Source: Eledone cirrhosa (lineage: Eukaryota). From it: a DNA stretch of 64,000 bases. The DNA is taken from positions 233,182,001-233,246,000 of the forward strand of contig OZ024743.1 of assembly GCA_964016885.1 (NCBI GenBank). The letters run 5' to 3'. The number at the start of each line of letters is the position of its first letter. The stretch's first letter is position 1. Below are positions 10,671-64,000 of the stretch, piece after piece. The translations under genes and the position numbers were made by a program. The notes under the pieces were generated by a model, which searched no databases, was not told the DNA's origin, and saw nothing but the letters and a program-made list of their open reading frames with translations.

Positions 10671-10862
10671 AAGGGTGGTGGATTGGCAGTATCGGTAGAG
10701 GGTCGGACGCCATGCTTTCCAGCATAGTTACGTCCCTTTACGATCTGAGATCAAATCCCGCCGAGGTTGACTTTGCCTTTCATCCTTACAGGGTCGATAA
10801 AATAAAGTACCAGTAATGCACTGGGTAATTGCTGGCCTTGTGCCTAAAGTAGAAACAATTAT
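10671..10862 (+). mobile_element. tRNA-derived SINE (~190 bp), representative + copy; others at ~21161-21351, 26591-26760, 6585-6725
   Basis: A box TGGCAGTATCGG; B box GAGTTCAAATCC in family consensus; central GACTTTGCCTTTCATCC...GTCGATAAAATAAAGTACC block; ATT tail; agtcaggtaa repeated on both flanks. Confidence 0.9.
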
Positions 10863-11728
10863 TAGTCAGGTAACTAATCCATTCCTTGGTTAACTAGGCA
10901 GCTTTACAATTATCAAAATTTGTTTGACACACATTCTGTGATCTTCTCAATAACTATTCTTGCCTCTCTGTGAATCCTCTTCATTTTAATTTTGTTTTCT
11001 TTACTCCATCTTGTCTTTCTTGAGAAGGTCACAGAATGTATGATGAAAGAAAGTTTTGACAAATAATACACTGGTTACTAAAATAACCAAGGAATGGATT
11101 AGTTACTGGAATAATAATATCTCTACTTTTGATACAAAGCCAGCAATTACCCCCAGTGCATTACCGGTGCTTTATTTTATTGACCCCGTCAGGATGAAAG
11201 GCAAAGTTAACCTCGGCAGGATTTGAACTCAGAACGTAAAGGTCCATAACTCTACGCTGCAAAGCATGGTGTCTGACATTTTACCATTACTGCCAAACTA
11301 CCCAACTCATAATAAAACCAAAGTGAAGCACAACTGGTGCTTGTGTTTTTGCTGGCAGAATGACCCTCCCAAAATATTACAGTATATATATATATATTGT
11401 TACATTTGGGGAGGGTCATGTTGTCCTAACATTGCCAAAAAATAGTAAAACATTCATTGTTTGGTTTGGTTTTCGCTTCAGTATATTTCTATATTTATAT
11501 AAATAATTTAGTCAGCAATCAATGTTTATCATTGACTGAATCAACAGTTATAAATATAGATATCATTTCTCAAACAATTTCTGTTTCAACACATGATTTC
11601 ATATCAAAAACCTTGCAAAACAAATACATTGCCACTTTATTTATTTATTTATTTATATATAAGAAACGGAGAATCAGTGGTGCGATGAATAAGATTTATT
11701 AGATATATATATTAGATTCGTAGAATCG

Positions 11729-44920: not shown

Positions 44921-45183
44921 ATAGTGAAAGAGTGAAAAATAACATGGTCAACAGTACAAAAAGGGTTTTATTTACAGTATTAACAATTGTTTCATTGATT
45001 AAGTTGTCTAAAAATTACTAATCACATGTGATTAGCAATTTTTGCTAATTCTTGTGATTAGCAATTTTTCTATTTCATGTGATTAGCAATTTTTAGACAA
45101 CTTAATCAATGAAACAATTGTTAATACTGTAAATAAAACCCTTTTTGTACTGTTGACCATGTTATTCTTCACTCTTTCACTAT
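44921..45183. repeat. Near-perfect foldback palindrome, ~108-bp arms
   Basis: 44921-45028 is the reverse complement of 45076-45183 with ~2 mismatches. Confidence 0.93.
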
Positions 45184-46978: not shown

Positions 46979-47929
46979 CTGATAGGAAAATGAACAGAAT
47001 ATATATTCTATGAAATATTTAAAGCATACAGTTGTATGTGTGTATGTATATTTTATATAATATATAATATAATGAAAATTATTGTGTACAGTGCTCAGGT
47101 GCACTACAACTCATCAAAGGTGCATGTATAGTGCATAGAATAATTGTTTCTACTTTTGGCACAAGGCCAGCAATTACCCCAGTGCATTACTAGTGCTTTA
47201 TTTTATCGGCCCCATAAGGATGAAAGGCAAAGTCAACCTCGGTGGGATTTGAACACAGACCATAAAGGGCTGTAACTCTATGCTGCAAAGCATGGTGTCC
47301 AACCCTCTACCGATACTGCCAATCCACTGCCAATGAAAATTAATTAATGGATCAGTAATTGTGTAAGAAATATGATATTTAGGTAAAGAAGTTGAAAGTG
47401 ATCTAAGTGGAAAGTAACTCCTGAAGGTGAAGATTGAAGATAACATAGACAGAAATAATGTAAGTTGATCTCAGAATACTGAATATTACAATGGACAACA
47501 GCAGTAGAGTGGTAGAATCATTAGAATGTAAAGATCCTTAACTAAAATCTGTAAAGCAATTTGTTTAAATTCGTACACTTGAAAAGTAAATCTGTCTAAC
47601 GCTTCATTTTTAGATATTCTAACCAAATGTCTGTCATAGCAGAGCTGTGATCTCTCAACAAACTACACACTCCAATGAGTAACATTCCTCCAAAGATCCT
47701 TCAGAAGAACACCATCTGAGCTACTTGTATTTGCAAACAAGACAGTTGGACAACATGTATGAGCTCAGCATGTTTCGCTTGGGCATCCAGCCAGACCAAT
47801 TGGAGGCAGTTGCTTATGACAGGACTCACTGGAAGGCATATTTAAGGACACTGCCCCCACAACCCTCCTATGCAAAGGTGGGCGAAGAAGAAAATAGACA
47901 CTTGAAAAATTAAAAAAACGTTTGGTTAC

Positions 47930-48197
47930 CATCACTTTTCTGGCCAAACATTGGCAATGTGTTGTACTGGGCCATGGAAAAGTCGAATCCTTTAGCAGAA
48001 TTGGTGGGGAAAGTATTGAATGTGAAAGGGTTTCTTCTGCCAAAGCTTTCGTTGAAGGATAAATTGGCTTCATGTTCCAAGTAGACAATGTCGTCGCGAT
48101 CACGAGCCAGAGACCAGGCTTCTCTTTCCGTTAGATGACAATAGTGGGATATGCTGTCAGTGTCCAGCTTTACCCAAGTGCCATCATGGTTTGTGGT
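47930..48197 (-). CDS. MYCBP2: MYCBP2 exon TTNHDGTWVKLD...EAWSLARD...QKSD, phase 0-1
   Basis: GTWV-LD and EAWSL motifs; ttacag| and |gtaacc. Confidence 0.92.
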
Positions 48198-49190: not shown

Positions 49191-50403
49191 AAGTTGTTTA
49201 AAATGTTCATGTCTGCTTCATCTGTTAGTACTACTTCTACTGTCATCATTTACAAGTGGAATATCCATCCAGGATGTGACAGTTGGAAGGAGAGAGGGCT
49301 AGACCAGTACTGGACTAGTACCTTTTTTTATCAACCCTGAAAGGATGAAAGGCAAAGTTAACCCTGGTGGGATTTGAACTCAGAATGTCAGACAAATTGC
49401 TTTGCAGATTTTAGTTAAGGATCTTTACATTCTAATGATTCTACCACTCTACTGCTGGCATCCATTGTAATATTCAGTATTCTGAGATCAACTTACATTA
49501 TTTCGGTCTATGTTATCTTCAATCTTCCTCATCAGGAGTTACTTTCCACTTCTTTACCTAAATATCATCTTTCATACACAATTACTGATTATTGTCATCA
49601 TTTAATGTCCATTTTCTATGCTAGAATGGATAAGACAGTTTGTCCCATTAGAAGCAAGTTGAGTCAAGGAACAATATCTTGTTTATACAGAACTGTTTCT
49701 GGCTTTGTTTCTATGGCTGGATGCTCTTCCTAATGCCAACCACATTTACCATGTGTGGTAGGTGCTTTTTGTCATGACACCTACACAACCACCTTTACAG
49801 TGCGGGCTGGGTGCTTTTTGTCGTGATACCTAAATGCCCACCTTACAGTGTGGGCTGGGTGCTTTTTGTATGACACCTACATGACCAAATTATAGTGTGA
49901 ACTGGGTGCTTTATGTTGTGACACCTACATGACCACTTTACAGTTAATTTTCATTATTAATTATTACATTATCTATATTATAGTATGCTACTGTTGTAGT
50001 TGTTTTAAAGTACCAATAACACACTGGGTCAATCTAATCGATTTCCCCCACCCCTCAAATTGTTGGCCTTCTGCCTAAATCAGAAAGCACTACTATTATT
50101 AGTGGTAGTAATAATAGTAGTAAAAGGTCAAGCAGTACTTACATCCTCTGTTGCTGTGAGCTGGTTACCTAGAACTAACATTCCTATTGGTGTGGCTTTC
50201 TTACTTGGCCGACATCTAATGTTGTGGCCGGAAGAGCCACATTTGACCACCTGATAGCCACCAGGTCCACCTGAAATAACAATATACAATGTTACAATTA
50301 GTATTCAATGTAATCACCCTCTCACACATTCTTATATATATATATATATATATATACATTTACAGACACACAGAGATAAACACGGATACACACAGAAACC
50401 GAC
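49191..50403 (-). repeat. Inverted duplication arm containing the functional exon 50143-50270
   Basis: Reverse complement of 55875-57285. Confidence 0.92.
50143..50270 (-). CDS. MYCBP2: MYCBP2 exon GGPGGYQVVKCGSSGHNIRCRPSKKATPIGMLVLGNQLTATED, phase 1-0
   Basis: Hand translation matches the MYCBP2 GHNIR...PIGMLVLGN motif; tttcag| and |gtaagt. Confidence 0.93.
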
Positions 50404-51169
50404 TGACACACACATATAATTGTTTCTACTTTTGGCACAAGGCCAGCAATTACCCAGTGTATTACTGGTACTTTATTTTATCGACCCCGTAAGGATGAAA
50501 GGCAAAGTCAACCTCGGCGGGATTTGAACTCAGAATGGCAAGGGCCGTAACTCTATGCGTCAAAGCATGGCGTCCGACCCTCTACCGATACTGCCAATCA
50601 ACCTCCATCAATTTTGACAAGTGTTCTTGGTTTTTCTTTCAATCAATAGAATAGCCTGCTCATGAAATTATTAACATGTAATTGGTAGGGCATTCGATAG
50701 ACTCTCGTACCATTAAACTAATTCTCAAGGAGACCCAGTGTGACAAAGCTAGCACTATGAATTATAGGTACAGTCCATATGACAAGTTTCTAAAGAGTTC
50801 CAGTGAACCCAATTTCACTTAGAAGGTAAGGGTCAACATAACGATTTGGAAAATGTCACTTCCCCACGATGTCCCACAGTGGATTTGAACCCAAGATTTA
50901 ATGATTGTGAAGCCTTTTAACCATTTGGCCATGCTGAGTCCACACACATTATCATACATATATAAACATACAACAACAATATCATCATCATTGTTTTCCA
51001 TGCTGCTTTATGGTTGGAAGGTTTGTTAGACAAGACAGACAACCACATCTTGCTTATACGGTCCATTTTAACATGTCTGCTGTAGCTAGGCACTCTTCTT
51101 AATGCCTACCATTTTACAGCATGTTCTGAGTATATCTTATTGTTGCATCCACACTAATTTTATCATGGT

Positions 51170-51740
51170 ACAATTACTACCACATTACAGAGTGGGTTTG
51201 GTACATTTTACTGTGGTACCAGCACTACCACCTTACAGAGTGGACTGGGTGCATTTTATGTGACAAGCACTACCACCTTACAGAGTTGACTAAGTGCATT
51301 TTACTGTGGTACCAGGACTACCACGTTAGAGAGTGGACTGGGTGCATATTACGTGACAAGCACTACCACCTTACAGAGTTGACTAGGTGTATTTTACTGT
51401 GGTACCAGCACTACTACCTTACAGAGTGGACTTGGGTGCATTTTGTTGTGGCACAAGCACTATCTCCTTACAGAGTGGACTTGGGTGCATTTTGTTGTGG
51501 CACAAGCACTATCTCCTTACAGAATGGACTGGATGCATTTTATTATATGACAAGCACTGCCACCTTACAGAGTAGACTAGGTGCATTTTACTGTGGTACC
51601 AGCACTGCCACCTTACAGAGTGGACTGGGTGCATTTTACTATGGTACCAACACTACCACCATAGAGTGGACTAGGTGCATTTTACTGTGTTACTAGCACT
51701 GCCACCTTACAGAGCAGACTGGGTGCATTTTGATGTGGCA
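51170..51740. repeat. ~47-bp tandem repeat GCACTACCACCTTACAGAGTGGACTGGGTGCATTTT...; related array in opposite orientation at ~4000-4320
   Basis: About 12 units; the unit also occurs inside a dispersed repeat (~250-540, 49590-49945). Confidence 0.85.
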
Positions 51741-51916
51741 CGTATACACATAAAAAGATGCATATATAAATGTACAATACTACTTTGGTAAAGAAAACAC
51801 ATTGGATAATGCAGTCCAGTGTAGAGGAGGGCCCAGCTGAAATGTCTTTGAGCTCCACTTGGATCTAAACAACAACATCAACAAAAATACAGTCAAGAAT
51901 TAAATATGGCAACAAC

Positions 51917-52142
51917 CTTTACGAATTCTGGATTCTTGCACAAATTCTGGTATTTTCCTCAGCAAAGTTTCTTTAATAATTTCATCAAGAATGGATTTTG
52001 GTTCCTCAATGGGAATGAGAAGTGTTTTACCAAGATGTTGGTTGTACTGCAGACACCAAGCTTCTGTAAAGCCATTCACACCACACCATTCTTTAATACT
52101 CTCACCACTAAGTCTCACCCACACACCATCATCATTGTGAAT
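51917..52142 (-). CDS. MYCBP2: MYCBP2 exon IHNDDGVWVRL...EAWCLQYNQHLGKTLL...RIRK, phase 0-1
   Basis: Conserved HNDDGVW and EAWCLQYNQHLGK motifs; ttacag| and |gttgtt. Confidence 0.93.
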
Positions 52143-53039
52143 CTGTAAAATCAAGATGAAAAAATATATTTGGGGAGGGTCATGCTGTCCTAATATTTCC
52201 AAAAAATAGTAAAACATACTCACTGTTTGGTTTGGTTTGGTTTGGATTTTGCTTCAGAATATTTATATAAATAATTTAGCTGGCAATCAATGTTTATCAT
52301 TGATTGACCAACAGTTAAAAATATAGATATAAATGAAGAAAAAATATATATAATTGATAAATTATGATCCTGTATGTGTGTAAATACACAAAGTGAATAA
52401 GTGTGTATAAATTCACTAAGTGTGTGTGTGTGTGTGTGTGTGAATGTGGGTGGATATGCATATGTATATAAAGACACTAAAATGTATATAAATGCACTAA
52501 GGTTGAGTGTATCATTATATACTGTCACGCAATCTGCTAGAAATAGACTATGTATATAAAAGCAAAGACACATTGGATAGTGTGTGTATGTGTGTTGTGT
52601 CTGGGTGTGTGTGTGTGTGTGTGCATGTGCATGCATGCTTGCATATTTTTGTGTATGTTGGACTTTTGTCAGTTCCATGAATTAGTATTCCAGTTGCTGA
52701 AGTCATCACAAAAATGGCAGAGAATTCCACAGACTCACATTCTCTTAAAGTAGTTCTCAGGGGACTCAGCATGACAGTGTCTGACAAGGCTACTAATTTT
52801 TTCCAGATTCTTGGACTAGAGCAACAAGAAATAAAGTGTCTTTTTCAAGGACACAACATGCTGCTAAGAATCAAACACTTAACCTTACATTTGTGTGCAG
52901 GACACCCCTAATTACTAAGCCACATGACATCACATTGAATAATATACTCCTAGATACACTAACTCTATATAAAGCAAAGGATAGTTGCATCTGGAATGTC
53001 TTTTATCAAATGTCTACTCAATGAGGTTCTGACATGAGT

Positions 53040-53265
53040 TTAACCCTTTAGCATTTACATTACTCTATATTTACTTTTATATTTTCAAGGTAAAGGCTTT
53101 ATTTCACATAAATATCTCGCATACTATCGAATCTGTGAGATTTTAATATTTATTTTGAGAACAATACCTTAACATCAGTATGCATGGCCAGTTATGGCCG
53201 GTTTGAACAGAAAGAGGGGTGAGGATTCTGACTGGATACAGTCGGTTTAAATGCTAAAGGGTTAA
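53040..53265. mobile_element. piggyBac-type MITE (~225 bp); other copies at ~4660-4868, 28897-29118, 30938-31167, 33635-33858, partial 2598-2710
   Basis: TTAA-CCCTTTAGCATTTA...TAAATGCTAAAGGG-TTAA terminal inverted repeats; shared internal sequence. Confidence 0.85.
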
Positions 53266-53403
53266 ACTATTATATTCTAAACTGGTTGTCACTGTTAATA
53301 ATTCTCATCATTTGATTTTGTTTGAATTTCTAGGAGGAAGTTTGAGCAATACTAATTGACTTGAAGGAAACTAGAGTAAAAAGCAAATCAAAGAATTCTT
53401 TAC

Positions 53404-53520
53404 CTCATCTACAAAAGAAATGGTTCCATCGGGTCTAATAGTTCCTATTTGCTCACTTTGTAGAGATGGGTTGATACGAATCCGAAGACCAGCACTGTTT
53501 TTCCCAACAAATCGACGCAT
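53404..53520 (-). CDS. MYCBP2: MYCBP2 exon MRRFVGKNSAGLRIRINPSLQSEQIG...FVDE, phase 0-0 (absent from ORF track)
   Basis: Hand translation; SAGLRIR-xx-PSLQSEQIG is a MYCBP2 signature; taacag| and |gtaaag. Confidence 0.93.
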
Positions 53521-54846
53521 CTGTTAGAAAAAAATGAAAAAAAAATATTATTATTATTGTTGGTATTCCTAGGTTTCACTTCAGTGATATCCCCTTTCCT
53601 TTACTTGATGTAAACCCCACTTTGTGTTGTGTTGTCTTTGACCTTGTTTTCTCTCCAATGTCCTAGGCCCCTTGTGGCCAATAAAAGAAATCATCACCAT
53701 CATCACCATCATTTCTTTGACAACTTCATATGAGCTCCTACTACATCATCTCGTACACTTCCTCAAAAATACAAATAGATGGGAGGTGGGGGAGTATATT
53801 CTTCCCCTGTTACTGTACAGACTGCATCATTTTTGTTTTTTTAAAGGGGTTTAGCTTGTTGTTTCTTACATTACACCTACTGCAGAGAAAGTGCACAACA
53901 GCCCTCAATTATTAGCATGCTGTTTCTTACATTACACCTAGTGCAGAGAACAAAGTGTACAACAGCCCTGCATTATTAGCTTCTTGTTTTTTACATTACA
54001 CTTAATGCAGAGAAAGTGCACAACAGTCCTCCATTATTTTTGTTTGTTTTGTACATGCTAAAGAACTACCATACTCAAATAGATCTGGAAATCCCTAATA
54101 TATATCAATATTGCAATAGCATTTTCAGTGATGCCCTGAATATCTTATACTTACATAATCTAAATATGCTGGAGCTATGATACAACTCTGTCAAAGTGTC
54201 AGAATGCATTCAATTTGAATTGCAACATTCAACACGATGTGGACAGGGACTCTGTAATCTATAGCAAAGGCAACCCATATAGGACAGCAGGAATTCTATA
54301 ATACACCCAGTCCCTGCTGTAATGGTGCTAAGAAAGACATCCAGCCAGAAAAAAAAAAAACATGTAAAAACCATGCCTAGCACAAATTTTATTGGGGCAA
54401 CCACAACCCAAACAGGATTCTCTTGGCATCAACAATGACAATCTAAGAAATCTCTCTTGAAATACTTTCAGGACAGGAATTGAGGACTCCAAACAGTCAT
54501 GGTTAAGCAATGATACTGATAACCATTAACCTTTTGTGACTATATTTCTAATAAAAATACACTATTTCAATTCATTAATGAAACATTCCCCTCAGCACCC
54601 CCTGGCTTTCATTTCCTCCCCCACCTATAGCCATGTTTTTCTTAGTCTTCCCCTTCCTTTACTTCCTTCCACATTCATTTCTACATCAATTTTCTCTCCC
54701 GGTCACATTCATACTTCCTCAACACATGACCTAACCATGAAAAGCTTTTGAGAAAATGATAAAAACAGACAAATGGAAAGAAAGAAAGTCCAAATTAAAG
54801 GAAAAAATTGTGTAACAATGAATAAAAGAAAAACCTCAATACCCAC

Positions 54847-54935
54847 CTTATTGGGTTGATGTGATTTCTTGCCTGCCTGTAATGGTGGAGTCACTCCTTG
54901 AGGGGGTTCACGTACATCCACTTTGAAAGATTCTC
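54847..54935 (-). CDS. MYCBP2: MYCBP2 exon (G)ESFKVDVREPPQGVTPP...QPNK, phase 1-0
   Basis: ttctag| and |gtgggt; 89 nt restores frame; V-EPP-G motif. Confidence 0.88.
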
Positions 54936-55019
54936 CTAGAAGTTTCCAGAAACAACAGAAGTGGTGAAGGAAACATAAAGGATGGTAATTAGATTTAGTA
55001 GGTTAGTGATGATCAGAGT

Positions 55020-55385
55020 TGACATGTGGTGAGGAGTGACATGTATAGAGTGACATGTATAGAGTGACATGTAGAGAGGAGTGACATATATAGAGAGGAG
55101 TGACATGTAGAGACATGTAAAGAGGAATGACATGTAGAGAGGAGTGACATGTATAGAGAGGAGTGACATGTAGAGAGAGGAGTGACATGTAGAGAGGAGT
55201 GACATGTATAGAGAGGAGTGACATGTATAGAGAGGAGTGACATGTATAGAGAGGAGTGACATGTAGAGAGAGGAGTGACATGTAGAGAGAGGAGTGACAT
55301 GTAGAGAGGAGTGACATGTAGAGAGTGACATGTAGAGAGGAGTAACATGTAGAGAGTGACATGTAGAGAGTGACATGTAGAGAGG
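55020..55385. repeat. GAGTGACATGTAGAGAG minisatellite (14-21 bp variants)
   Basis: Direct reading. Confidence 0.93.
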
Positions 55386-55874
55386 AATGTAATAATAATA
55401 GATGAGGGTGGTCGATTTGGAAGAGTCGTTTGAGCATTGGGTATTTGTTCTGAGCTAAAATCCTGCAGAGGACAACTTAGATGATAGAATAATTAATAAT
55501 TGTCTCTACTTTTAAAACAAGGCCAGCAATTATACCCCAGTGCATTACTGGTGCTTTATTTTATTGACCCCGTAAGGACAAAGGGCAAAGTTAACTTCAA
55601 TGGAATTTGAACTCAGACCATAAAGGGTCGTAACTCCATACTGCAAAGCATGGTGTCCGATCCTCTACCGATACTGCCAATTAACAATGAAAATTAATTA
55701 ATGAATCAGAAATTGTGTATGAAAGATGATATTTAGGTAAAGAAGTTGAAAGATATCTAAGTGGAAAGTAACTCCTGAAGAGGAAGATTGAAGATAACAT
55801 AGACAGAAATAATGTAAGTTGATCTCAGAATACTGAATATTACAATGGACAACAGCAGTAGAGTGGTAGAATCT

Positions 55875-55992
55875 GTTGGTTTCTGTATGGGTCTGTCTCT
55901 GTGTGTCTGTAAATGTGCATGTGTATGTATATATATAAACATTTGTTCGTACTGCCTCTGTTTTGTTCCCGTTCAATTTTTCACTATATATA

Positions 55993-56037
<45 letters not shown>

Positions 56038-57285
56038 AATGTGTGAGAGGGTGATTACATTGAATATCAATTGTAACATTGTATATTGTTATTTCAGGTG
56101 GACCTGGTGGCTATCAGGTGGTCAAATGTGGCAATTCTGGCCAAAACATTAGATGTCGGCCAAGTAAGAAAGCCACAACCAATAGGAATGTTAGTTCTAG
56201 GTAACCAGCTCACAGCAACAGAGGGTGTAAGTACTGCTTGACCTTTTACTACTATTATTACTACCACTAATAATAGTAGTGCTTTCTGATTTAGGCAGAA
56301 GGCCAACAATTTGAGGGGCGGGGGAATCGATTAGATTGACCCAGTGTGTTATTGGTACTTTAAAACAACTACAACAGTAGCATACTATAATATAGATAAT
56401 GTAATAATTAATAATGAAAATTAACTGTAAAGTGGTCATGTAGGTGTCACAACATAAAGCACCCAGTTCACACTATAATTTGGTCATGTAGGTGTCATAC
56501 AAAAATCACCCAGCCCACACTGTAAGGTGGGCATGTAGGTATCACGACAAAAAGCACCCAGCCCGCACTGTAAAGGTGGTTGTGTAGGTGTCATGACAAA
56601 AAGCACCTACCACACATGGTAAATGTGGTTGGCATTAGGAAGAGCATCCAGCCATAGAAATGAAGCCAGAAACAGTTCTGTATGAACAAGATATTGTTCC
56701 TTGACTCAACTTGCTTCTAATGGGACAAACTGTCTAATCCATTCTAGCATAGAAAATGGACATTAAATGATGACAATAATCAGTAATTGTGTATGAAAGA
56801 TGATATTTAGGTAAAGAAGTGGAAAGTAACTCCTGAAGAGGAAGATTGAAGATAACATAGACAGAAATAATGTAAGTTGATCTCAGAATACTGAATATTA
56901 CAATGGATGCCAGCAGTAGAGTGGTAGAATCATTAGAATGTAAAAATCCATAACTAAAATCTGCAAAGCAATTTGTCTGACATTCTGAGTTCAAATCCCA
57001 CCAGGGTTAACTTTGCCTTTCATCCTTTCAGGGTTGATAAAAAAAGGTACTAGTCCAGTACTGGTCTAGCCCTCTCTCCTTCCAACTGTCACATCCTGGA
57101 TGGATATTCCACTGGATCAAAAAGAGAGAAGATCAAGACAGTGCATCTGTCTACTCATAACTGCATAAGCACCTAAAAGCCTCAGCATAAACATGGTAGA
57201 GACTACCAAATCATACTCACTTGTAAATGATGACAGTAGAAGTAGTACTAACAGATGAAGCAGACATGAACATTTTAAACAACTT
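55875..57285 (+). repeat. Inverted duplication arm, partner of 49191-50403
   Basis: Reverse-complement match read along its length; extra segments at ~55917-55995 and ~57114-57220. Confidence 0.92.
56098..56226 (+). pseudogene. Inverted, frameshifted copy of MYCBP2 exon 50143-50270 with its splice sites
   Basis: atttcag|GTGGACCTGG...GAGGGT|gtaagt on + strand; 1-nt insertion (gccacAacc) and ~5 substitutions versus the real exon. Confidence 0.93.
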
Positions 57286-57518
57286 TCAAACTGCTTTAAG
57301 CTTGATAGTAGGATTTACATGTTTTTAAATAGTATCTACACTCTGTTCTCTTTAAAGTATGGAGCACAAAGTTGAATAATGGTCTTACTAATCTGAATTA
57401 AACTTTTTTTTAGGTATTTTCTGCTAAATCTTACAAGATGTTAAAGAGTTAACATTCACTCCAATTTCAGAGGGTCAGTACATTTTCATTGCTTCACAGC
57501 TGAGTTTGTTAACCATAC

Positions 57519-57690
57519 CTGCATCGAAGCCATCAACAGTAACATAGATGTTGTAAAGACCAACACTTCCTGGGGTCCAGTTACAGTTGTAGGAGCCATC
57601 ATTGCTGGAACGAACTAGCATGTTCTCACTGGGGCGTGGCACAGCAGGGGCTGCGTAACGCAACTCCTCAAACGAATAATTTTCATACAC
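57519..57690 (-). CDS. MYCBP2: MYCBP2 exon VYENYSFEELRY...NWTPGSVGLYNIYVTVDGFDA (RAE1-binding/filamin-like region), phase 0-1
   Basis: YENYSFEELR and WTPG motifs recognised from PHR proteins; tttcag| and |gtatgg sites. Confidence 0.93.
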
Positions 57691-58557
57691 CTGAAACAAT
57701 AACAGGGAAAAACAAAATTACAAACACCTTCACAAACCAAACCTGAAGCTTCTATGTGGTCGTTCAACCAGCTAGAAATAGCAACAAATTCCCTTCACAC
57801 CACACTACAGCCTTTAGAAAAGAAAGACATATTGGATATTGTAGGCTTAGACTATGCCTGAAAATATGAGAGGATGGTCATTGATGGAATACCTCTGATA
57901 ATGTCTATTCAATTAGACAATTATATATCTAAAAAAAAAAAAAAATAGGATGTTGTGACAGTTATACTTTTCATAAGGACATTAGAAATAGAAATAAAAC
58001 CATTTCAATAGAAGATAATTTTCCAAGACACCCAGTAGTAGAGGAATCAAAACTGATACTGTGGAACCCATCATTCAGTCAAAGAAGCACCAGTTGTAGA
58101 GCAATAACATACATTCATACCTTGCTGAAAGGTACTGGCTTCGACAATGTAGTTGAACTGAGGACTGCAATGATGGACAAAGAGGATTAGATATGATAAA
58201 CTGATTTGATGCAAGTGGAAACTGCTCACTTATTCTTGAGAGGGTCGTGATGGCAGAGTCTACAAACACTCCTTCCAGCGGGTCCTGTCAGAATCAACCA
58301 TCTCCAACCGATCCGCCTGGATCCCCAAGCGAGAGCAGTCAAGCTCATGGATGTTATCCAATCATCTTGCTCAGAGTCTACCACTGGGTCTCATGTCGGC
58401 TGGTTTTACCCGTAAAATCTGTCCAGTGATTCTTTCCCCGAGACATTCTAACCACATACCGATAGTATCGGAGCTGTGATCTCTCAATTCGAAAAAGTAG
58501 CAGCTCTACCTAGAGTGACTCTCTGAACAATAAACACCTGCCAAGAAAAAAACCTAC

Positions 58558-59514: not shown

Positions 59515-62500
59515 GTGTGTTGTGATGTACTGTAGCGTGGCATATTGTACAGTAGCGTGGTGTGTTGTACGGTAGGTTGGTGTGTTGTACTGTAGCGTGG
59601 TGTGTTGTACAGTGGTGCGGTGTGTTGTACAGTGGTGCGGTGTGTTGTACAGTAGTGTGGTGTGTTGTACTGTAGCGTGGTGTGTTGTACAGTGGTGCGG
59701 TGTGTTGTACAGTAGCGCGGTGTGTTGTACAGTAGCGCGGTGTGTTGTACAGTAGCGTGGTGTGTTGTACAGTAGCGCGGTGTGTTGTACTGTAGCGTGG
59801 CGTATTCTACTGTAGCGTGGCTTTTTGTACAGTACCGTGGTGTGTTGTACAGTAGCCTGGTGTGTTGTACTGTAGCGTGGTGTGTTCTACTGTAGCTTGG
59901 TACAGTAGCATGGCGTGTTGTACTGTAGTGTGGTGTGTTGTACTGTACTGTAGCGCGGTGTGCTGTACTGTAGTGTGGTGTGTTGTACAGTAGGTTGGTG
60001 TGTTGTACAGTAGTGTGGTGTGTTGTACAGTAGTGTGGTGTGTTGTACAATAGTGTGGTGTGTTGTACTCTAGTGTGGTGTATTGTACAGTAGCATCGCG
60101 TGTTGTAGTGTGGTATGGTGTGTTGTACAGTAGCATGGCATGTTGTACTGTAGTGTGGTGTGTTGTACTGTACTGTAGCGTGGTGTGTTGTACAGTAGCG
60201 CGGTGTGTTGTACAGTAGCGCGGTGTGTTGTACAGTAGCGTGGTGTGTTGTACTGTAGCGCGGTGTGTTGTACTGTAGCGCGGTGTGTTGTACTGTAGCG
60301 TAGCATATTGTACTGTAGCATAGTGTGTTGTACTGTAGCGTGGCGTGTTGTAGAGTAAAGTTGGTGTGTTGTACAGTAGCGTGGCGTGTTGTAGAGTAGA
60401 GTTGGTGTGGTGTACAGTAGCGTGGTGTGTTCTACAGTAGCGCGGCGTGTTGTACAGTAGCGCGGTGTGTTGTACAGTAGCGTGGTGTGTTGTACAGTAG
60501 CGCGGTGTGTTGTACAGTAGCGTTGTGTGTTGTACAGTAGCGTGGTGTGTTGTACAGTAGCGTGGTGTGTTGTACTGTAGCGTGGCATATTGTACAGTGC
60601 GGTGTGTTGTACAGTAGTGCAGTGTGTTGTACAGTAGTGCGGTGTGTTGTACAGTAGTGCGGTGTGTTGTACAGTAGTGCTGTGTGTTGTACAGTAGTGC
60701 TGTGTGTTGTACAGTAGCGTGGTGTGTTGTACAGTAGCGTGGTGTGTTGTACAGTAGCGTGGTGTGTTGTACAGTAGCGTGGTGTGTTGTACAGTAGCGT
60801 GGTGTGTTGTACAGTAGCGTGGTGTGTTGTACAGTAGCGTGGTGTGTTGTACAGTAGCGTGGTGTGTTGTACAGTAGCATGGTGTGTTGTACAGTAGCGT
60901 GGTGTGTTGTACAGTAGCGTGGTGTGTTGTACAGTAGCGTGGTGTGTTGTACAGTAGCGTGGTGTGTTGTACTATAGCGTGGTGTGTTGTACTATAGCGT
61001 GGTATGTTGTACTATAGCGTGGTGTGTTGTACTGTAGCGTGGCATATTGTACAGTGCGGTGTGTTGTACAGTAGCGTGGTGTGTTGTACAGTAGTGTGGT
61101 GTGTTGTACAGTAGCGTGGTGTGTTGTACAGTAGCGTGGTGTGTTGTACAGTAGCGTGGTGTGTTGTACAGTAGCGTGGTGTGTTGTACAGTAGCGTGGT
61201 GTGTTGTACAGTAGCGTGGTGTGTTGTACAGTAGTGTGGTGTGTTGTACTATAGCGTGGCGTGTTGTACTATAGCGTGGTGTGTTGTACTGTAGCGTGGC
61301 ATATTGTACAGTGCGGTGTGTTGTACAGTAGTGCGGTGTGTTGTACAGTAGCACGGTGTGTTGTACAGTAGCGTGGTGTGTTGTACTGTAGCGTGGCATA
61401 TTGTACAGTAGCGTTGTGTGTTGTACAGTAGTGTGTTGTACTGTAGCGTGGCGTGTTGTAGAGTAGACTTGGTGTGTTGTACAGTAGTGTGGTGTGTTGT
61501 AGAGTAGAGTTGGTGTGTTGTACAGTAGCATGGTGTGTTGTACAGTAGCGTGGTGTGTTGTACAGTAGCGTGGTGTGTTGTACAGTGGCGCAGTGTGTTG
61601 TACAGTAGTGCAGTGTGTTGTACAGTAGTGCAGTGTGTTGTACAGTAGTGCAGTGTGTTGTACAGTAGTGCAGTGTGTTGTACAGTTGTGTAGTGTTTTG
61701 TACAGTAACATCGCGTATTGTACAGTAGCGTGGCGTGTTGTACAGTAGTGTGGTGTGTTGTACAGTAGCGCGGTGCGTTGTACTGTAGCGTGGCGTATTC
61801 TACTGTAGCATGGCTTTTTGTACAGTACCATGGTGTGTTGTACAGTAGCCTGGTGGTGTTGTACTGTAGCGTGGTGTGTTCTACTGTAGCGTGGTGTGTT
61901 CTACTGTAGCTTGGTGTGTTCTACTGTAGCTTGGTGTGTTGTACAGTAGCATGGTGTGTTGTACAGTAGCATGGCGTGTTGTACAGTAGCATGGCGTGTT
62001 GTACAGTAGCATGGCGTGTTGTACAGTAGCATGGCGTGTTGTAGCGTGGTCTGCTGTACTGTAGTGTGGTGTGTTGTACAGTAGGTTGGTGTGTTGTACA
62101 GTAGTGTGGTGTGTTGTACAATAGTGTGGTGTGTTGTACAATAGTGTGGTGTGTTGTACAATAGTGTGGTGTGTTGTACAATAGTGTGGTGTGTTGTACA
62201 ATAGTGTGGTGTATTGTAGTGTGGTGTGGTGTGTTGTACTGTAGTGTGGTGTGTTGTACTGTAGTGTGGTGTGTTGTACTGTAGTGTGGTGTGTTGTACT
62301 GTAGTGTGGTGTGTTATACTGTAGTGTGGTGTGTTGTACTGTAGTGTGGTGTGTTGTTCTGTGCTGTAGCGTGGTGTGAGGTATAGTAGCTTGGTGTCTT
62401 GTACAGAACTGTGGCGTATTGTACAGTAGCGTCGCGTTTTGTACTGTAGTGTGGTGTGTTATACTGTAGCGTGGTGTGTTGTACTGTAGCGTGGTGTGTT

Positions 62501-64000
62501 GTACTGTAGCGTGGTGTGTTGTACTGTAGCGTGGTGTGTTGTACTGTAGCGTGGTGTGTTGTACTGTAGCGTGGTGTGTTGTACTGTAGCGTGGTGTGTT
62601 GTACAGTAGCGTGGCGTGTTGTACTGTAGTGTGGTGTGTTGTACTGTAGTGTGGTGTGTTATACTGTAGCGTGGTGTGTTGTACTGTAGCGTGGTGCGTT
62701 GTACAGTAGCGTGGCGTGTTGTACTGTAGTGTGGTGTGTTGTACTGTAGCGTGGCGTATTGTACAGTAGCGTGGCATGTTGTATCTGTAGTGTGGTGTGT
62801 TATACTGTAGCGTGGTGTGTTGTACTGTAGCGTGGTGTGTTGTACAGTAGCCTGGCGTGTTGTACTGTAGTGTGGTGTACTGTAGCGTGGCGTATTGTAC
62901 AGTAGCGTGGCATGTTGTATCTGTAGTGTGGTGTGTTGCACTGTAGTGTGGTGTGTTGTTCTGTGCTGTAGCGTGGTGTGTGGTATAGTAGCTTGGTGTG
63001 TTGTACAGTAGTGTGGCGTATTGTACAGTAGCGTGGTGTGTTGTACAGTAGCCTGGTGGTGTTGTACTGTAGCGTGGTGTGTTCTACTGTAGCGTGGTGT
63101 GTTCTACTGTAGCTTGGTGTGTTCTACTGTAGCTTGGTGTGTTGTACAGTAGCATGGTGTGTTGTACAGTAGCATGGCGTGTTGTACAGTAGCATGGCGT
63201 GTTGTACAGTGCGGTGTGTTGTACAGTAGCGTGGTGTGTTGTACAGTAGTGTGGTGTGTTGTACAGTAGCGTGGTGTGTTGTACAGTAGCGTGGTGTGTT
63301 GTACAGTAGCGTGGTGTGTTGTACAGTAGCGTGGTGTGTTGTACAGTAGCGTGGTGTGTTGTACAGTAGCGTGGTGTGTTGTACAGTAGTGTGGTGTGTT
63401 GTACTATAGCGTGGCGTGTTGTACTATAGCGTGGTGTGTTGTACTGTAGCGTGGCATATTGTACAGTGCGGTGTGTTGTACAGTAGTGCGGTGTGTTGTA
63501 CAGTAGCACGGTGTGTTGTACAGTAGCGTGGTGTGTTGTACTGTAGCGTGGCATATTGTACAGTAGCGTTGTGTGTTGTACAGTAGTGTGTTGTACTGTA
63601 GCGTGGCGTGTTGTAGAGTAGACTTGGTGTGTTGTACAGTAGTGTGGTGTGTTGTAGAGTAGAGTTGGTGTGTTGTACAGTAGCATGGTGTGTTGTACAG
63701 TAGCGTGGTGTGTTGTACAGTAGCGTGGTGTGTTGTACAGTGGCGCGGTGTGTTGTACAGTAGTGCAGTGTGTTGTACAGTAGTGCAGTGTGTTGTACAG
63801 TTGTGTAGTGTTTTGTACAGTAACATCGCGTATTGTACAGTAGCGTGGCGTGTTGTACAGTAGTGTGGTGTGTTGTACAGTAGCGCGGTGCGTTGTACTG
63901 TAGCGTGGCGTATTCTACTGTAGCATGGCTTTTTGTACAGTACCGTGGTGTGTTGTACAGTAGCCTGGTGGTGTTGTACTGTAGCGTGGTGTGTTCTACT
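59515..64000. repeat. 20-bp satellite GTACAGTAGCGTGGTGTGTT with higher-order duplications
   Basis: >4.4 kb of tandem units running off the window end. Confidence 0.97.

What the first reader, a model, noticed from the sequence alone, without database searches (positions are those of the whole stretch)
49191..57285. Intragenic inverted duplication places an antisense copy of a coding exon in the same pre-mRNA
Seen: 49191-50403 (exon 50143-50270, both its splice sites and ~950 bp of downstream intron) is repeated inverted at ~55875-57285, inside an upstream intron, with only scattered substitutions and indels. Established: long intramolecular dsRNA is the ADAR substrate, and coleoids recode neural mRNAs heavily. 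Inference: the pre-mRNA can form a >1 kb duplex covering an entire exon, a one-step origin of an editing-complementary sequence or splice mask for an SH3b-like repeat of this synaptic E3 ligase.
Basis: partly seen in the sequence, partly recalled or inferred. Interest (0 to 1): 0.78.

Follow-up and report, generated by a model that had tools for sequence, protein, structure and literature searches.

The report
Inverted exon copy inside Highwire intron
A nerve-growth gene (MYCBP2/Highwire) carries a real, recent, backwards copy of one of its own coding exons in an upstream intron, so its unspliced RNA could fold into a 1.2-kb double strand, but the copy is decaying, the one spliced transcript seen is normal, and it is likely a harmless by-product of DNA repair.

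Summary
49191-50406 (exon F 50143-50270, both splice sites, 952 bp of downstream intron) is repeated inverted at 55875-57285, 98% identical, in intron B-C of a MYCBP2/Highwire orthologue. Read-derived contigs of one sample carry the distal junction and copy-specific alleles at single-copy depth and shared parts at about twice that, so a misassembly is unlikely. Two related organisms show exon F at single-copy depth with the donor's letters: the copy is lineage-specific and derived (frameshift, invariant His changed). It sits beside a second local fragment, which points to template-switch repair. Among 20 long inverted pairs in 1.66 Mb, it is the only one not made of a dispersed repeat. Function is not supported: the one RNA-like run gives an intact B-C-D-E-F transcript with no extra A-to-G in F; the arms are 5.5 kb and three exons apart; unselective editing would hit invariant residues. 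Low-level editing or minor isoforms could not be tested (contigs only, tissue unknown). Verdict: real, uncommon, probably near-neutral; a good natural test of long-range pairing. Cephalopod identity is not established by any search.

The parts
49191..50406 (-). Donor arm: ~135 bp upstream intron, exon F, 952 bp downstream intron; lacks two blocks that the copy has
50143..50270 (-). Exon F of MYCBP2 (128 nt, phase 1 to 0), first half of the second SH3_3-like repeat; functional copy
   Evidence: tblastn; Pfam weak; in spliced contig; 3 of 3 listed outgroup differences synonymous
55875..57285 (+). Inverted copy of the donor arm in intron B-C; antisense to exon F in the pre-mRNA
   Evidence: read-derived contigs
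56098..56226 (+). Dead copy of exon F: splice sites intact, 5 substitutions, 1-base insertion (frameshift, early stop)
   Evidence: outgroup letters
57114..57217 (.). Block present only in the copy; old dispersed repeat matches across both edges, so ancestral and lost from the donor arm (4-bp microhomology)
55938..55995 (.). Small dispersed repeat within the (TA)n run, present only in the copy; gained by the copy or lost by the donor, not resolved
55686..55873 (+). Second fragment (X55): same-strand copy of 47332-47519, 8 differences in 188
   Evidence: junction allele in contig
55496..55685 (+). SINE-like repeat at the proximal end; 86% to the SINE at 47140; its 3' end is the likely switch point
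47140..47564 (+). SINE-like repeat plus local element X47, template of the second fragment; X47 is itself an older inverted repeat of 49392-49613 around exon G
57519..57690 (-). Exon B (172 nt, phase 0 to 1), upstream of the copy; filamin-like
54847..54935 (-). Exon C (89 nt), in the loop
53404..53520 (-). Exon D (117 nt), in the loop; first SH3_3-like repeat
51917..52142 (-). Exon E (226 nt), in the loop; C+D+E = 432 nt, matching the gap between B and F in the RNA contig
47930..48197 (-). Exon G (268 nt), downstream of F

Best explanation
This is a real, young, lineage-specific inverted copy of exon F and its flanking introns, likely made by template-switching DNA repair and likely a near-neutral passenger that leaves the main MYCBP2 mRNA normal. 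Shown: the copy, its decay, its absence at exon F in two relatives (by depth and letters), and a normally spliced transcript. Inferred origin: a broken end in intron B-C copied ~1.4 kb from 6-8 kb away on the opposite strand and ~0.2 kb (or 0.4 kb with the SINE) from 47.3-47.5 kb on the same strand, joined at short homologies; one event or two is not resolved. Inferred behaviour: intron B-C can be committed to splicing once exon C is made, 4.5 kb before the second arm appears, and exon F is bound by splicing factors as it emerges, so only a minority of nascent transcripts would form the duplex; those would be hyper-edited, mis-spliced or degraded in the nucleus rather than give a tuned recoded protein.
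For: Real: contig 57256-58291 runs from the arm's last 30 bases into intron and exon B at depth 10.6 (X1) and 8.3 (X2); copy-only block 57084-57247 at 11.4 and 9.9; shared parts at 20.4-20.7 and 14.2-14.5 against 7.5-11 for unique flanks. The unbroken contig across 57286 suggests no empty allele in that sample (inference). Derived: X4, X5 and X8 lack the copy's letter at 5 of 5 listed exon differences, at single-copy depth in X5 (18.5 vs 14.3-17.8) and X8 (74.7 vs 69.8-71.3). Decay: frameshift, H16Q at a residue invariant in 67 of 67 homologues; no sign that pairing over the exon is preserved (6/128 vs 14/1018, Fisher p=0.018). Repair signature: introns retained, two local templates, 2-bp homology at the middle junction, the same 7-mer at 55472 and 57279. 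Normal mRNA: X4 contig of 3521 nt with A, B, 432 nt, F. Distance: Alu editability decays with ~800 nt and is weaker across gene segments (PMC4066801, passages); that formula gives 0.003 points above baseline at 5468 nt. Long near-perfect inverted duplications number 54,479 in pre-mRNAs of 49 species (PMC7006430, passages).
Against: The RNA evidence is one run of unknown tissue, as contigs at depth 10; contigs drop rare variants and hyper-edited reads would not assemble; it is not shown that sample S2 carries the copy. The Alu distance rule comes from ~300-nt, imperfect human repeats and may understate a 1.2-kb 98% duplex, in a slower-transcribing ectotherm with (if coleoid) very active ADARs (PMC5625713, PMC9068888, passages). 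X1/X2 are one sample and may be the source of the assembly. The junction contig has 30 letters on the arm side, one short of the tool's 31-letter rule; the proximal junction 55873/55875 lies at a masked repeat and was not seen. My expectation that such locus-specific inversions are common failed: none of the other 19 rows was locus-specific. The excess of changes over the exon could also mean selection against the duplex, i.e. that it does form; 4 of the 6 changes lie within 12 bp and may be one event.
Confidence: 0.68

Rival explanations
1. The copy works as a newly born editing-complementary sequence: the duplex forms often enough in neurons that ADAR recodes exon F at measurable levels in mature mRNA.
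For: Whole exon paired on paper (-442 kcal/mol for exon +/-60 nt against -70 for its own fold). One A faces a C (50144, D43G), a context ADAR favours (recalled). Squid neural recoding is extensive (PMC9068888, passages); octopus has high hyper-editing (PMC5625713, passages).
Against: No majority A-to-G in F in X4. 5.5-kb loop over three exons. That A has a 5' G, a disfavoured neighbour (recalled). Hyper-editing is rare in coding sequence across species (PMC5625713). Editing would change H16, N17, R19, invariant in 67 of 67 homologues. Some squid recoding needs no intron (PMC7192619, passages).
Confidence: 0.13
2. The arms act like an inverted Alu pair around exons C-D-E and drive back-splicing to a 432-nt circle or in-frame skipping B-to-F that deletes the first SH3-like repeat.
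For: C+D+E = 432 nt, no stop in the circle's frame; B+F joins in frame without a stop. Short intronic inverted repeats suffice for circles (PMC4201285, abstract); inverted Alu pairs within 5 kb are enriched around skippable exons (bioRxiv 10.1101/2025.03.07.642063, passages).
Against: X4's contig runs unbroken through B-C-D-E-F. B-to-F skipping needs F's acceptor, which the same duplex would cover. The upstream arm's inner end is 940 nt from C's acceptor and the downstream one 1.5 kb from E's donor, with SINEs and minisatellites competing. C, D and E themselves were not in the laid stretch, so an E-to-C joint could not have been seen.
Confidence: 0.12
3. The copy masks exon F and both its splice sites, causing F skipping, a frameshift and nonsense-mediated decay, lowering MYCBP2 dose.
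For: Both splice sites lie inside the duplex; E+G shifts frame and meets a stop. Decayed transcripts would be invisible in mRNA contigs.
Against: F is included in the assembled transcript; exon F stays under constraint; the copy appears homozygous in S1, which argues against a large cost (inference).
Confidence: 0.05
4. Assembly artefact: a second haplotype or fold-back read placed inverted.
For: 1.4% intron divergence is of the size that alleles can have; proximal junction not seen in reads; laid DNA runs may be the assembly's source sample.
Against: Depth doubles on shared sequence while copy-only sequence has flank depth; distal junction and frameshift allele are in read-derived contigs of two runs; a frameshifted allele of exon F in opposite orientation is not a haplotype.
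Confidence: 0.02

Closest known systems
Long, nearly perfect inverted duplicated sequences (IDS) in pre-mRNA (PMC7006430, passages)
   Same: >300 bp, >96% identical, opposite strands, same pre-mRNA, removed from the mature mRNA by splicing
   Different: Most such structures are repeat-derived; here the arms are unique gene sequence and one arm includes a coding exon with both splice sites
Inverted Alu/SINE pairs (IRAlu): hyper-editing, back-splicing, loop-out skipping (PMC4066801 passages; PMC4201285 abstract; bioRxiv 10.1101/2025.03.07.642063 passages)
   Same: Intramolecular pairing across exons; looped exons are in frame
   Different: Four times longer and far more identical than Alu pairs, single partner, 5.5 kb apart; an exon is in the stem, not only the loop; no editing, circle or skipping shown
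Editing-complementary sequence (e.g. GRIA2 Q/R ECS; search listing PMC7045468 and recall)
   Same: Intronic sequence complementary to a coding exon of a neural gene
   Different: Known ECSs are short, imperfect, conserved and give selected sites; this is kilobase-long, near-perfect, upstream across three exons, lineage-specific and unconserved
Templated insertions by MMBIR/FoSTeS or polymerase-theta joining (PMC8421209, search listing only; mechanism recalled)
   Same: Fragments from nearby templates, one inverted, joined at short homologies, introns retained
   Different: Germline and apparently homozygous; empty site not observed, so junction homologies are inferred; the two fragments may differ in age (p 0.005-0.05)
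Hairpin-RNA / inverted-duplication origin of siRNA and miRNA loci (Drosophila hpRNA, plant MIRNA; recalled)
   Same: Inverted duplication of a gene's own sequence giving a self-targeting hairpin
   Different: Very long loop, nuclear intronic location; endo-siRNA machinery reported lost in Trochozoa (PMC11114477, abstract)

Membership tests
Long nearly perfect pre-mRNA IDS | Inverted match >300 bp and >96% identity | tested here: met
   1109 columns, 98.0%
Long nearly perfect pre-mRNA IDS | Both arms inside one transcription unit | tested here: met
   Exons B and C flank the copy, F is in the other arm; A-B-..-F in one spliced contig
Editing-complementary sequence | Intronic sequence complementary to the exon | tested here: met
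Editing-complementary sequence | A-to-I editing of the paired exon | tested here: inconclusive
   No extra A-to-G in F in one contig of depth 10, tissue unknown; contigs drop minority variants
Editing-complementary sequence | Editing depends on the element | not testable with these tools
   needs minigene or carrier/non-carrier RNA
Editing-complementary sequence | Conserved across species with maintained pairing | tested here: not met
   Single-copy depth and donor letters in X5, X8; more change over exon than intron
Inverted-repeat-driven circRNA / loop-out skipping | Complementary sequences bracket the exons | tested here: met
   C, D, E lie between the arms
Inverted-repeat-driven circRNA / loop-out skipping | Back-splice or skip junction in RNA | tested here: inconclusive
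   Only the inclusion form assembled; C-E not in the laid stretch; joint table cut
Templated insertion (MMBIR/FoSTeS/TMEJ) | Insert copied from nearby DNA with introns, orientation switch | tested here: met
Templated insertion (MMBIR/FoSTeS/TMEJ) | Microhomology at junctions against the empty site | tested here: inconclusive
   2-bp, SINE-end and 7-bp matches; no empty allele seen in any run
Transposon terminal inverted repeat or dispersed repeat pair | Arms occur dispersed in the genome | tested here: not met
   Exon part two copies, X part four copies, all in the window; only short embedded repeats match elsewhere
Processed (retro) copy | Introns absent | tested here: not met
   Both flanking introns copied; A-to-G in gene sense 4 of 18 substitutions counted on either reading, no excess
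hpRNA / endo-siRNA locus | Phased small RNAs from the duplex | not testable with these tools
   no small-RNA run listed

The most novel reading that the evidence does not exclude
A single repair accident gave a conserved neuronal E3 ligase a ready-made, exon-wide antisense partner, and in neurons it already changes the RNA: new A-to-I sites in the second SH3-like repeat and/or an in-frame C-D-E circle or skip, present in this species and absent in sister species. That would be a dated, one-step birth of an editing substrate, with the excess of changes over the exon marking selection tuning the duplex down.
Probability: 0.15. Interest if true: 0.72.

Novelty: new member of a known kind. Interest (0 to 1): 0.38.

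Why it matters
How new editing substrates arise, and over what distance pre-mRNA pairing can beat splicing, are open questions. This locus gives a clean natural test: a 1.2-kb, 98% duplex over a conserved exon, present in one species and apparently absent in two relatives, with diagnostic letters that tell the arms apart and an internal positive control (a 2-kb, 97% transposon pair within one intron of the same gene). A negative result shows that even an ideal antisense exon copy is tolerated at 5.5 kb; a positive one would be a dated origin of recoding or circularisation. Practically, such copies can mis-map RNA reads and fake editing calls in exon F. As it stands no function is shown. Searches found no paper on an antisense copy of a gene's own coding exon as an ECS origin or on MYCBP2 editing, but the library lacks most subscription journals.

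Tried and rejected
No listed run is on record as RNA; X4 is taken as RNA only because its contig is spliced. RAD runs X11-X13 had no cover on unique parts of the stretch, so presence in other individuals is open. The proximal junction lies at a stretch the tool masks (55885-56049). No contig showing an empty site appeared among the listed pieces of X5 or X8; lists were cut. Hypothesis 'locus-specific inverted duplications are common here' was rejected: of 19 other rows in 1.664 Mb, 9 had at least 0.89 dispersed cover in the sample, 9 rows (7 searches) proved dispersed genome-wide, 1 (0.77) was not tested further. My note that one cluster lay at an assembly gap was wrong. Transposon TIR, retrocopy and inversion of the spacer were rejected. 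Whether the SINE at 55496 was copied with X or pre-existed is unresolved. A second homologue search named no cephalopod. The 5' part of the gene beyond 115.5 kb was not found by tblastn with one homologue. PMC5499236 was not held. PMC4384741 passages added nothing on introns. No supplements were read; editing-site tables of cephalopod papers may list MYCBP2 sites. No earlier findings of this scan were returned.
Full report
Observation. Self-comparison of the window finds 49255-50362 inverted at 57113-56006 with 98.0% identity over 1109 columns, extended by 49191-49258 (68/68) and, more loosely, 50335-50406 (76%). The arms are 5468 nt apart. Outside simple repeats they differ at 14 of 1018 intron positions and 6 of 128 exon positions. 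A genome search with the exon and its flank returns two full-length places, both in the window, among 40 scored candidates.

The gene. The long frame at 13922-15733 hits MYCBP2/Highwire proteins (best named: gastropods, 45-54%). Five homologues map exons on the minus strand in order: A 58749-58558, B 57690-57519, C 54935-54847, D 53520-53404, E 52142-51917, F 50270-50143, G 48197-47930 (boundaries). B is filamin-like; D and F give weak SH3_3 matches below Pfam's cut-off. The copy lies in intron B-C; C, D and E are in the loop; F is in the stem. No call names the organism as a cephalopod; that premise is recalled from repeat content only.

Real or artefact. In read-derived contigs of two runs of one sample, a 1036-nt contig starts 30 bases inside the arm's distal end and continues through exon B with no difference (depth 10.6 and 8.3); a copy-only block has depth 11.4 and 9.9; shared parts have 20.4-20.7 and 14.2-14.5; unique flanks 7.5-11; the frameshifted exon allele is present. 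Thirty letters is one short of the tool's bridging rule but is where a 31-mer graph must break at a two-copy stretch (inference). Reading copy number from contig depth is also my inference. The unbroken contig suggests no empty allele, i.e. homozygosity. These runs may be the assembly's source, so they test the assembler, not the population. The proximal junction is masked. Three RAD runs gave no unique cover.

Age and direction. In organisms B (X5) and E (X8) exon F has single-copy depth and lacks the copy's letter at 5 of 5 listed differences; the sixth was not listed. The three X8 differences listed in F are synonymous. So the copy arose after these splits, and the changes (S13N, H16Q, a frameshift, probably D43G) fell on the copy; H16 is invariant in 67 of 67 homologues. 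Intron divergence between arms (1.4%) is well below that to organism B (16 of 125 in one intron piece). The copy also keeps a 104-bp block that an old dispersed repeat spans on both sides, so the donor lost it; a second copy-only block is a small dispersed repeat.

Origin. Next to the arm, 55686-55873 is a same-strand copy of 47332-47519, a local element found four times, all in the window, preceded at both places by a SINE-like repeat (86% identical). Junctions show the shared SINE 3' end, a 2-bp homology, and one 7-mer at both 55472 and 57279 (about 0.005 by chance in 50 positions, chosen after the fact). Introns are retained and the arms are not dispersed, which excludes a retrocopy or transposon ends. 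This fits template-switch repair (MMBIR/FoSTeS or polymerase theta; mechanism recalled; PMC8421209 seen as listing only). The second fragment is more diverged (8 of 188; p 0.005-0.05 against the arm), so two events are possible.

How unusual. In 1.664 Mb (464 kb around the locus and six 200-kb stretches chosen without regard to content) there are 20 inverted pairs of at least 400 bp, 90% and within 20 kb. Long pre-mRNA duplex potential is therefore ordinary, in line with the high dsRNA potential reported for octopus (PMC5625713, passages) and with 54,479 long near-perfect inverted duplications in pre-mRNAs of 49 species (PMC7006430, passages). The same gene has a 2.0-kb, 97.4% pair 2.4 kb apart within one intron. 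Against my expectation, none of the other 19 rows was locus-specific: 18 are dispersed repeats by in-sample cover or genome search, one was not followed up. An inverted copy of unique, exon-bearing sequence is thus uncommon here; a rate cannot be given from one ascertained case.

Function. The arms pair on paper at -2127 kcal/mol. But run X4 (organism A, another sample, spliced) gives one 3521-nt contig at depth 10.1 holding A, B, then 432 nt, then F; 432 is exactly C+D+E; its four differences and one gap against the copy are the donor's letters, with no further A-to-G. This excludes dominant skipping or majority recoding in that sample only; tissue is unknown, rare forms and hyper-edited reads drop out of contigs, and carrier status of S2 is not shown. 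Human Alu editing decays with about 800 nt and is weaker when partners lie in different segments (PMC4066801, passages); that formula gives 0.003 points at this distance, with the caveat that Alus are shorter and less identical. Intron B-C can be defined 4.5 kb before the second arm is transcribed. If the duplex forms, it is a hyper-editing substrate: 25 of 38 exon adenosines recode, three of them at residues invariant in 67 of 67 homologues, and hyper-editing is rare in coding regions (PMC5625713). Squid recoding is largely neural and most sites are low-level (PMC9068888, passages), and some needs no intron (PMC7192619, passages). The exon carries more change than the intron (p=0.018): no sign of selection to keep the pairing, possibly selection against it, possibly one clustered mutation.

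Inverted repeats can drive circles (PMC4201285, abstract) and are enriched around skippable exons (bioRxiv 10.1101/2025.03.07.642063, passages). An siRNA route is unlikely given the reported loss of that pathway in Trochozoa (PMC11114477, abstract).

Verdict. Real, young, uncommon in kind, most likely near-neutral (0.68); measurable editing 0.13, circle or in-frame skip 0.12, masking with decay 0.05, artefact 0.02. It works, at most, like an inverted-repeat pair; it fails the conservation test for an established ECS. Interest 0.38: a well-controlled natural experiment, not a demonstrated mechanism.

Noticed in passing
window coordinates 71103-73106 / 75489-77492 (L019:7103-9106, L020:1489-3492): 2.0-kb, 97.4% inverted pair 2.4 kb apart inside one upstream MYCBP2 intron; dispersed element. 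Likely a better ADAR substrate than the finding and a positive control.
   Followed up: partly
L033:2282 onward (window coordinates 206282-214545): Near-perfect palindrome with ~4-kb arms (99.9%, 353-bp spacer); at least 40 copies 96-100% identical genome-wide, several also as inverted pairs: a very young giant fold-back element.
   Followed up: partly
L052:5038-7218: 2.18-kb arm of a 99.6% inverted pair 9.5 kb apart; 40 of 40 scored genome matches are 100% identical, so a currently or very recently active element with long terminal repeats.
   Followed up: partly
window 47332-47564 / 49392-49613: Older local inverted duplication (88-93%) bracketing exon G; with the new copies this element occurs four times in 10 kb, suggesting repeated template switching at this spot.
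   Followed up: partly
window 44921-45183: Hairpin with 108-bp, 98% arms around a 25-bp tandem loop; dispersed MITE-like element related to ends of longer elements.
   Followed up: yes
window, throughout: 25 SINE-like hits in 64 kb, 19 on + and 6 on -; two full copies face each other at 10677-11302.
   Followed up: partly
window 59517-63999: 4.5-kb array of a 20-bp unit in the intron above exon A, running off the window.
   Followed up: no
window 51917-51924: Exon E has a second possible donor 6 nt upstream in the same phase; the RNA contig length fits the 51917 donor.
   Followed up: partly
beyond window coordinate 115511: No tblastn match to the first ~1200 residues (RCC1-like part) of one homologue within 200 kb upstream; the 5' gene may be distant, fragmented or rearranged.
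   Followed up: no
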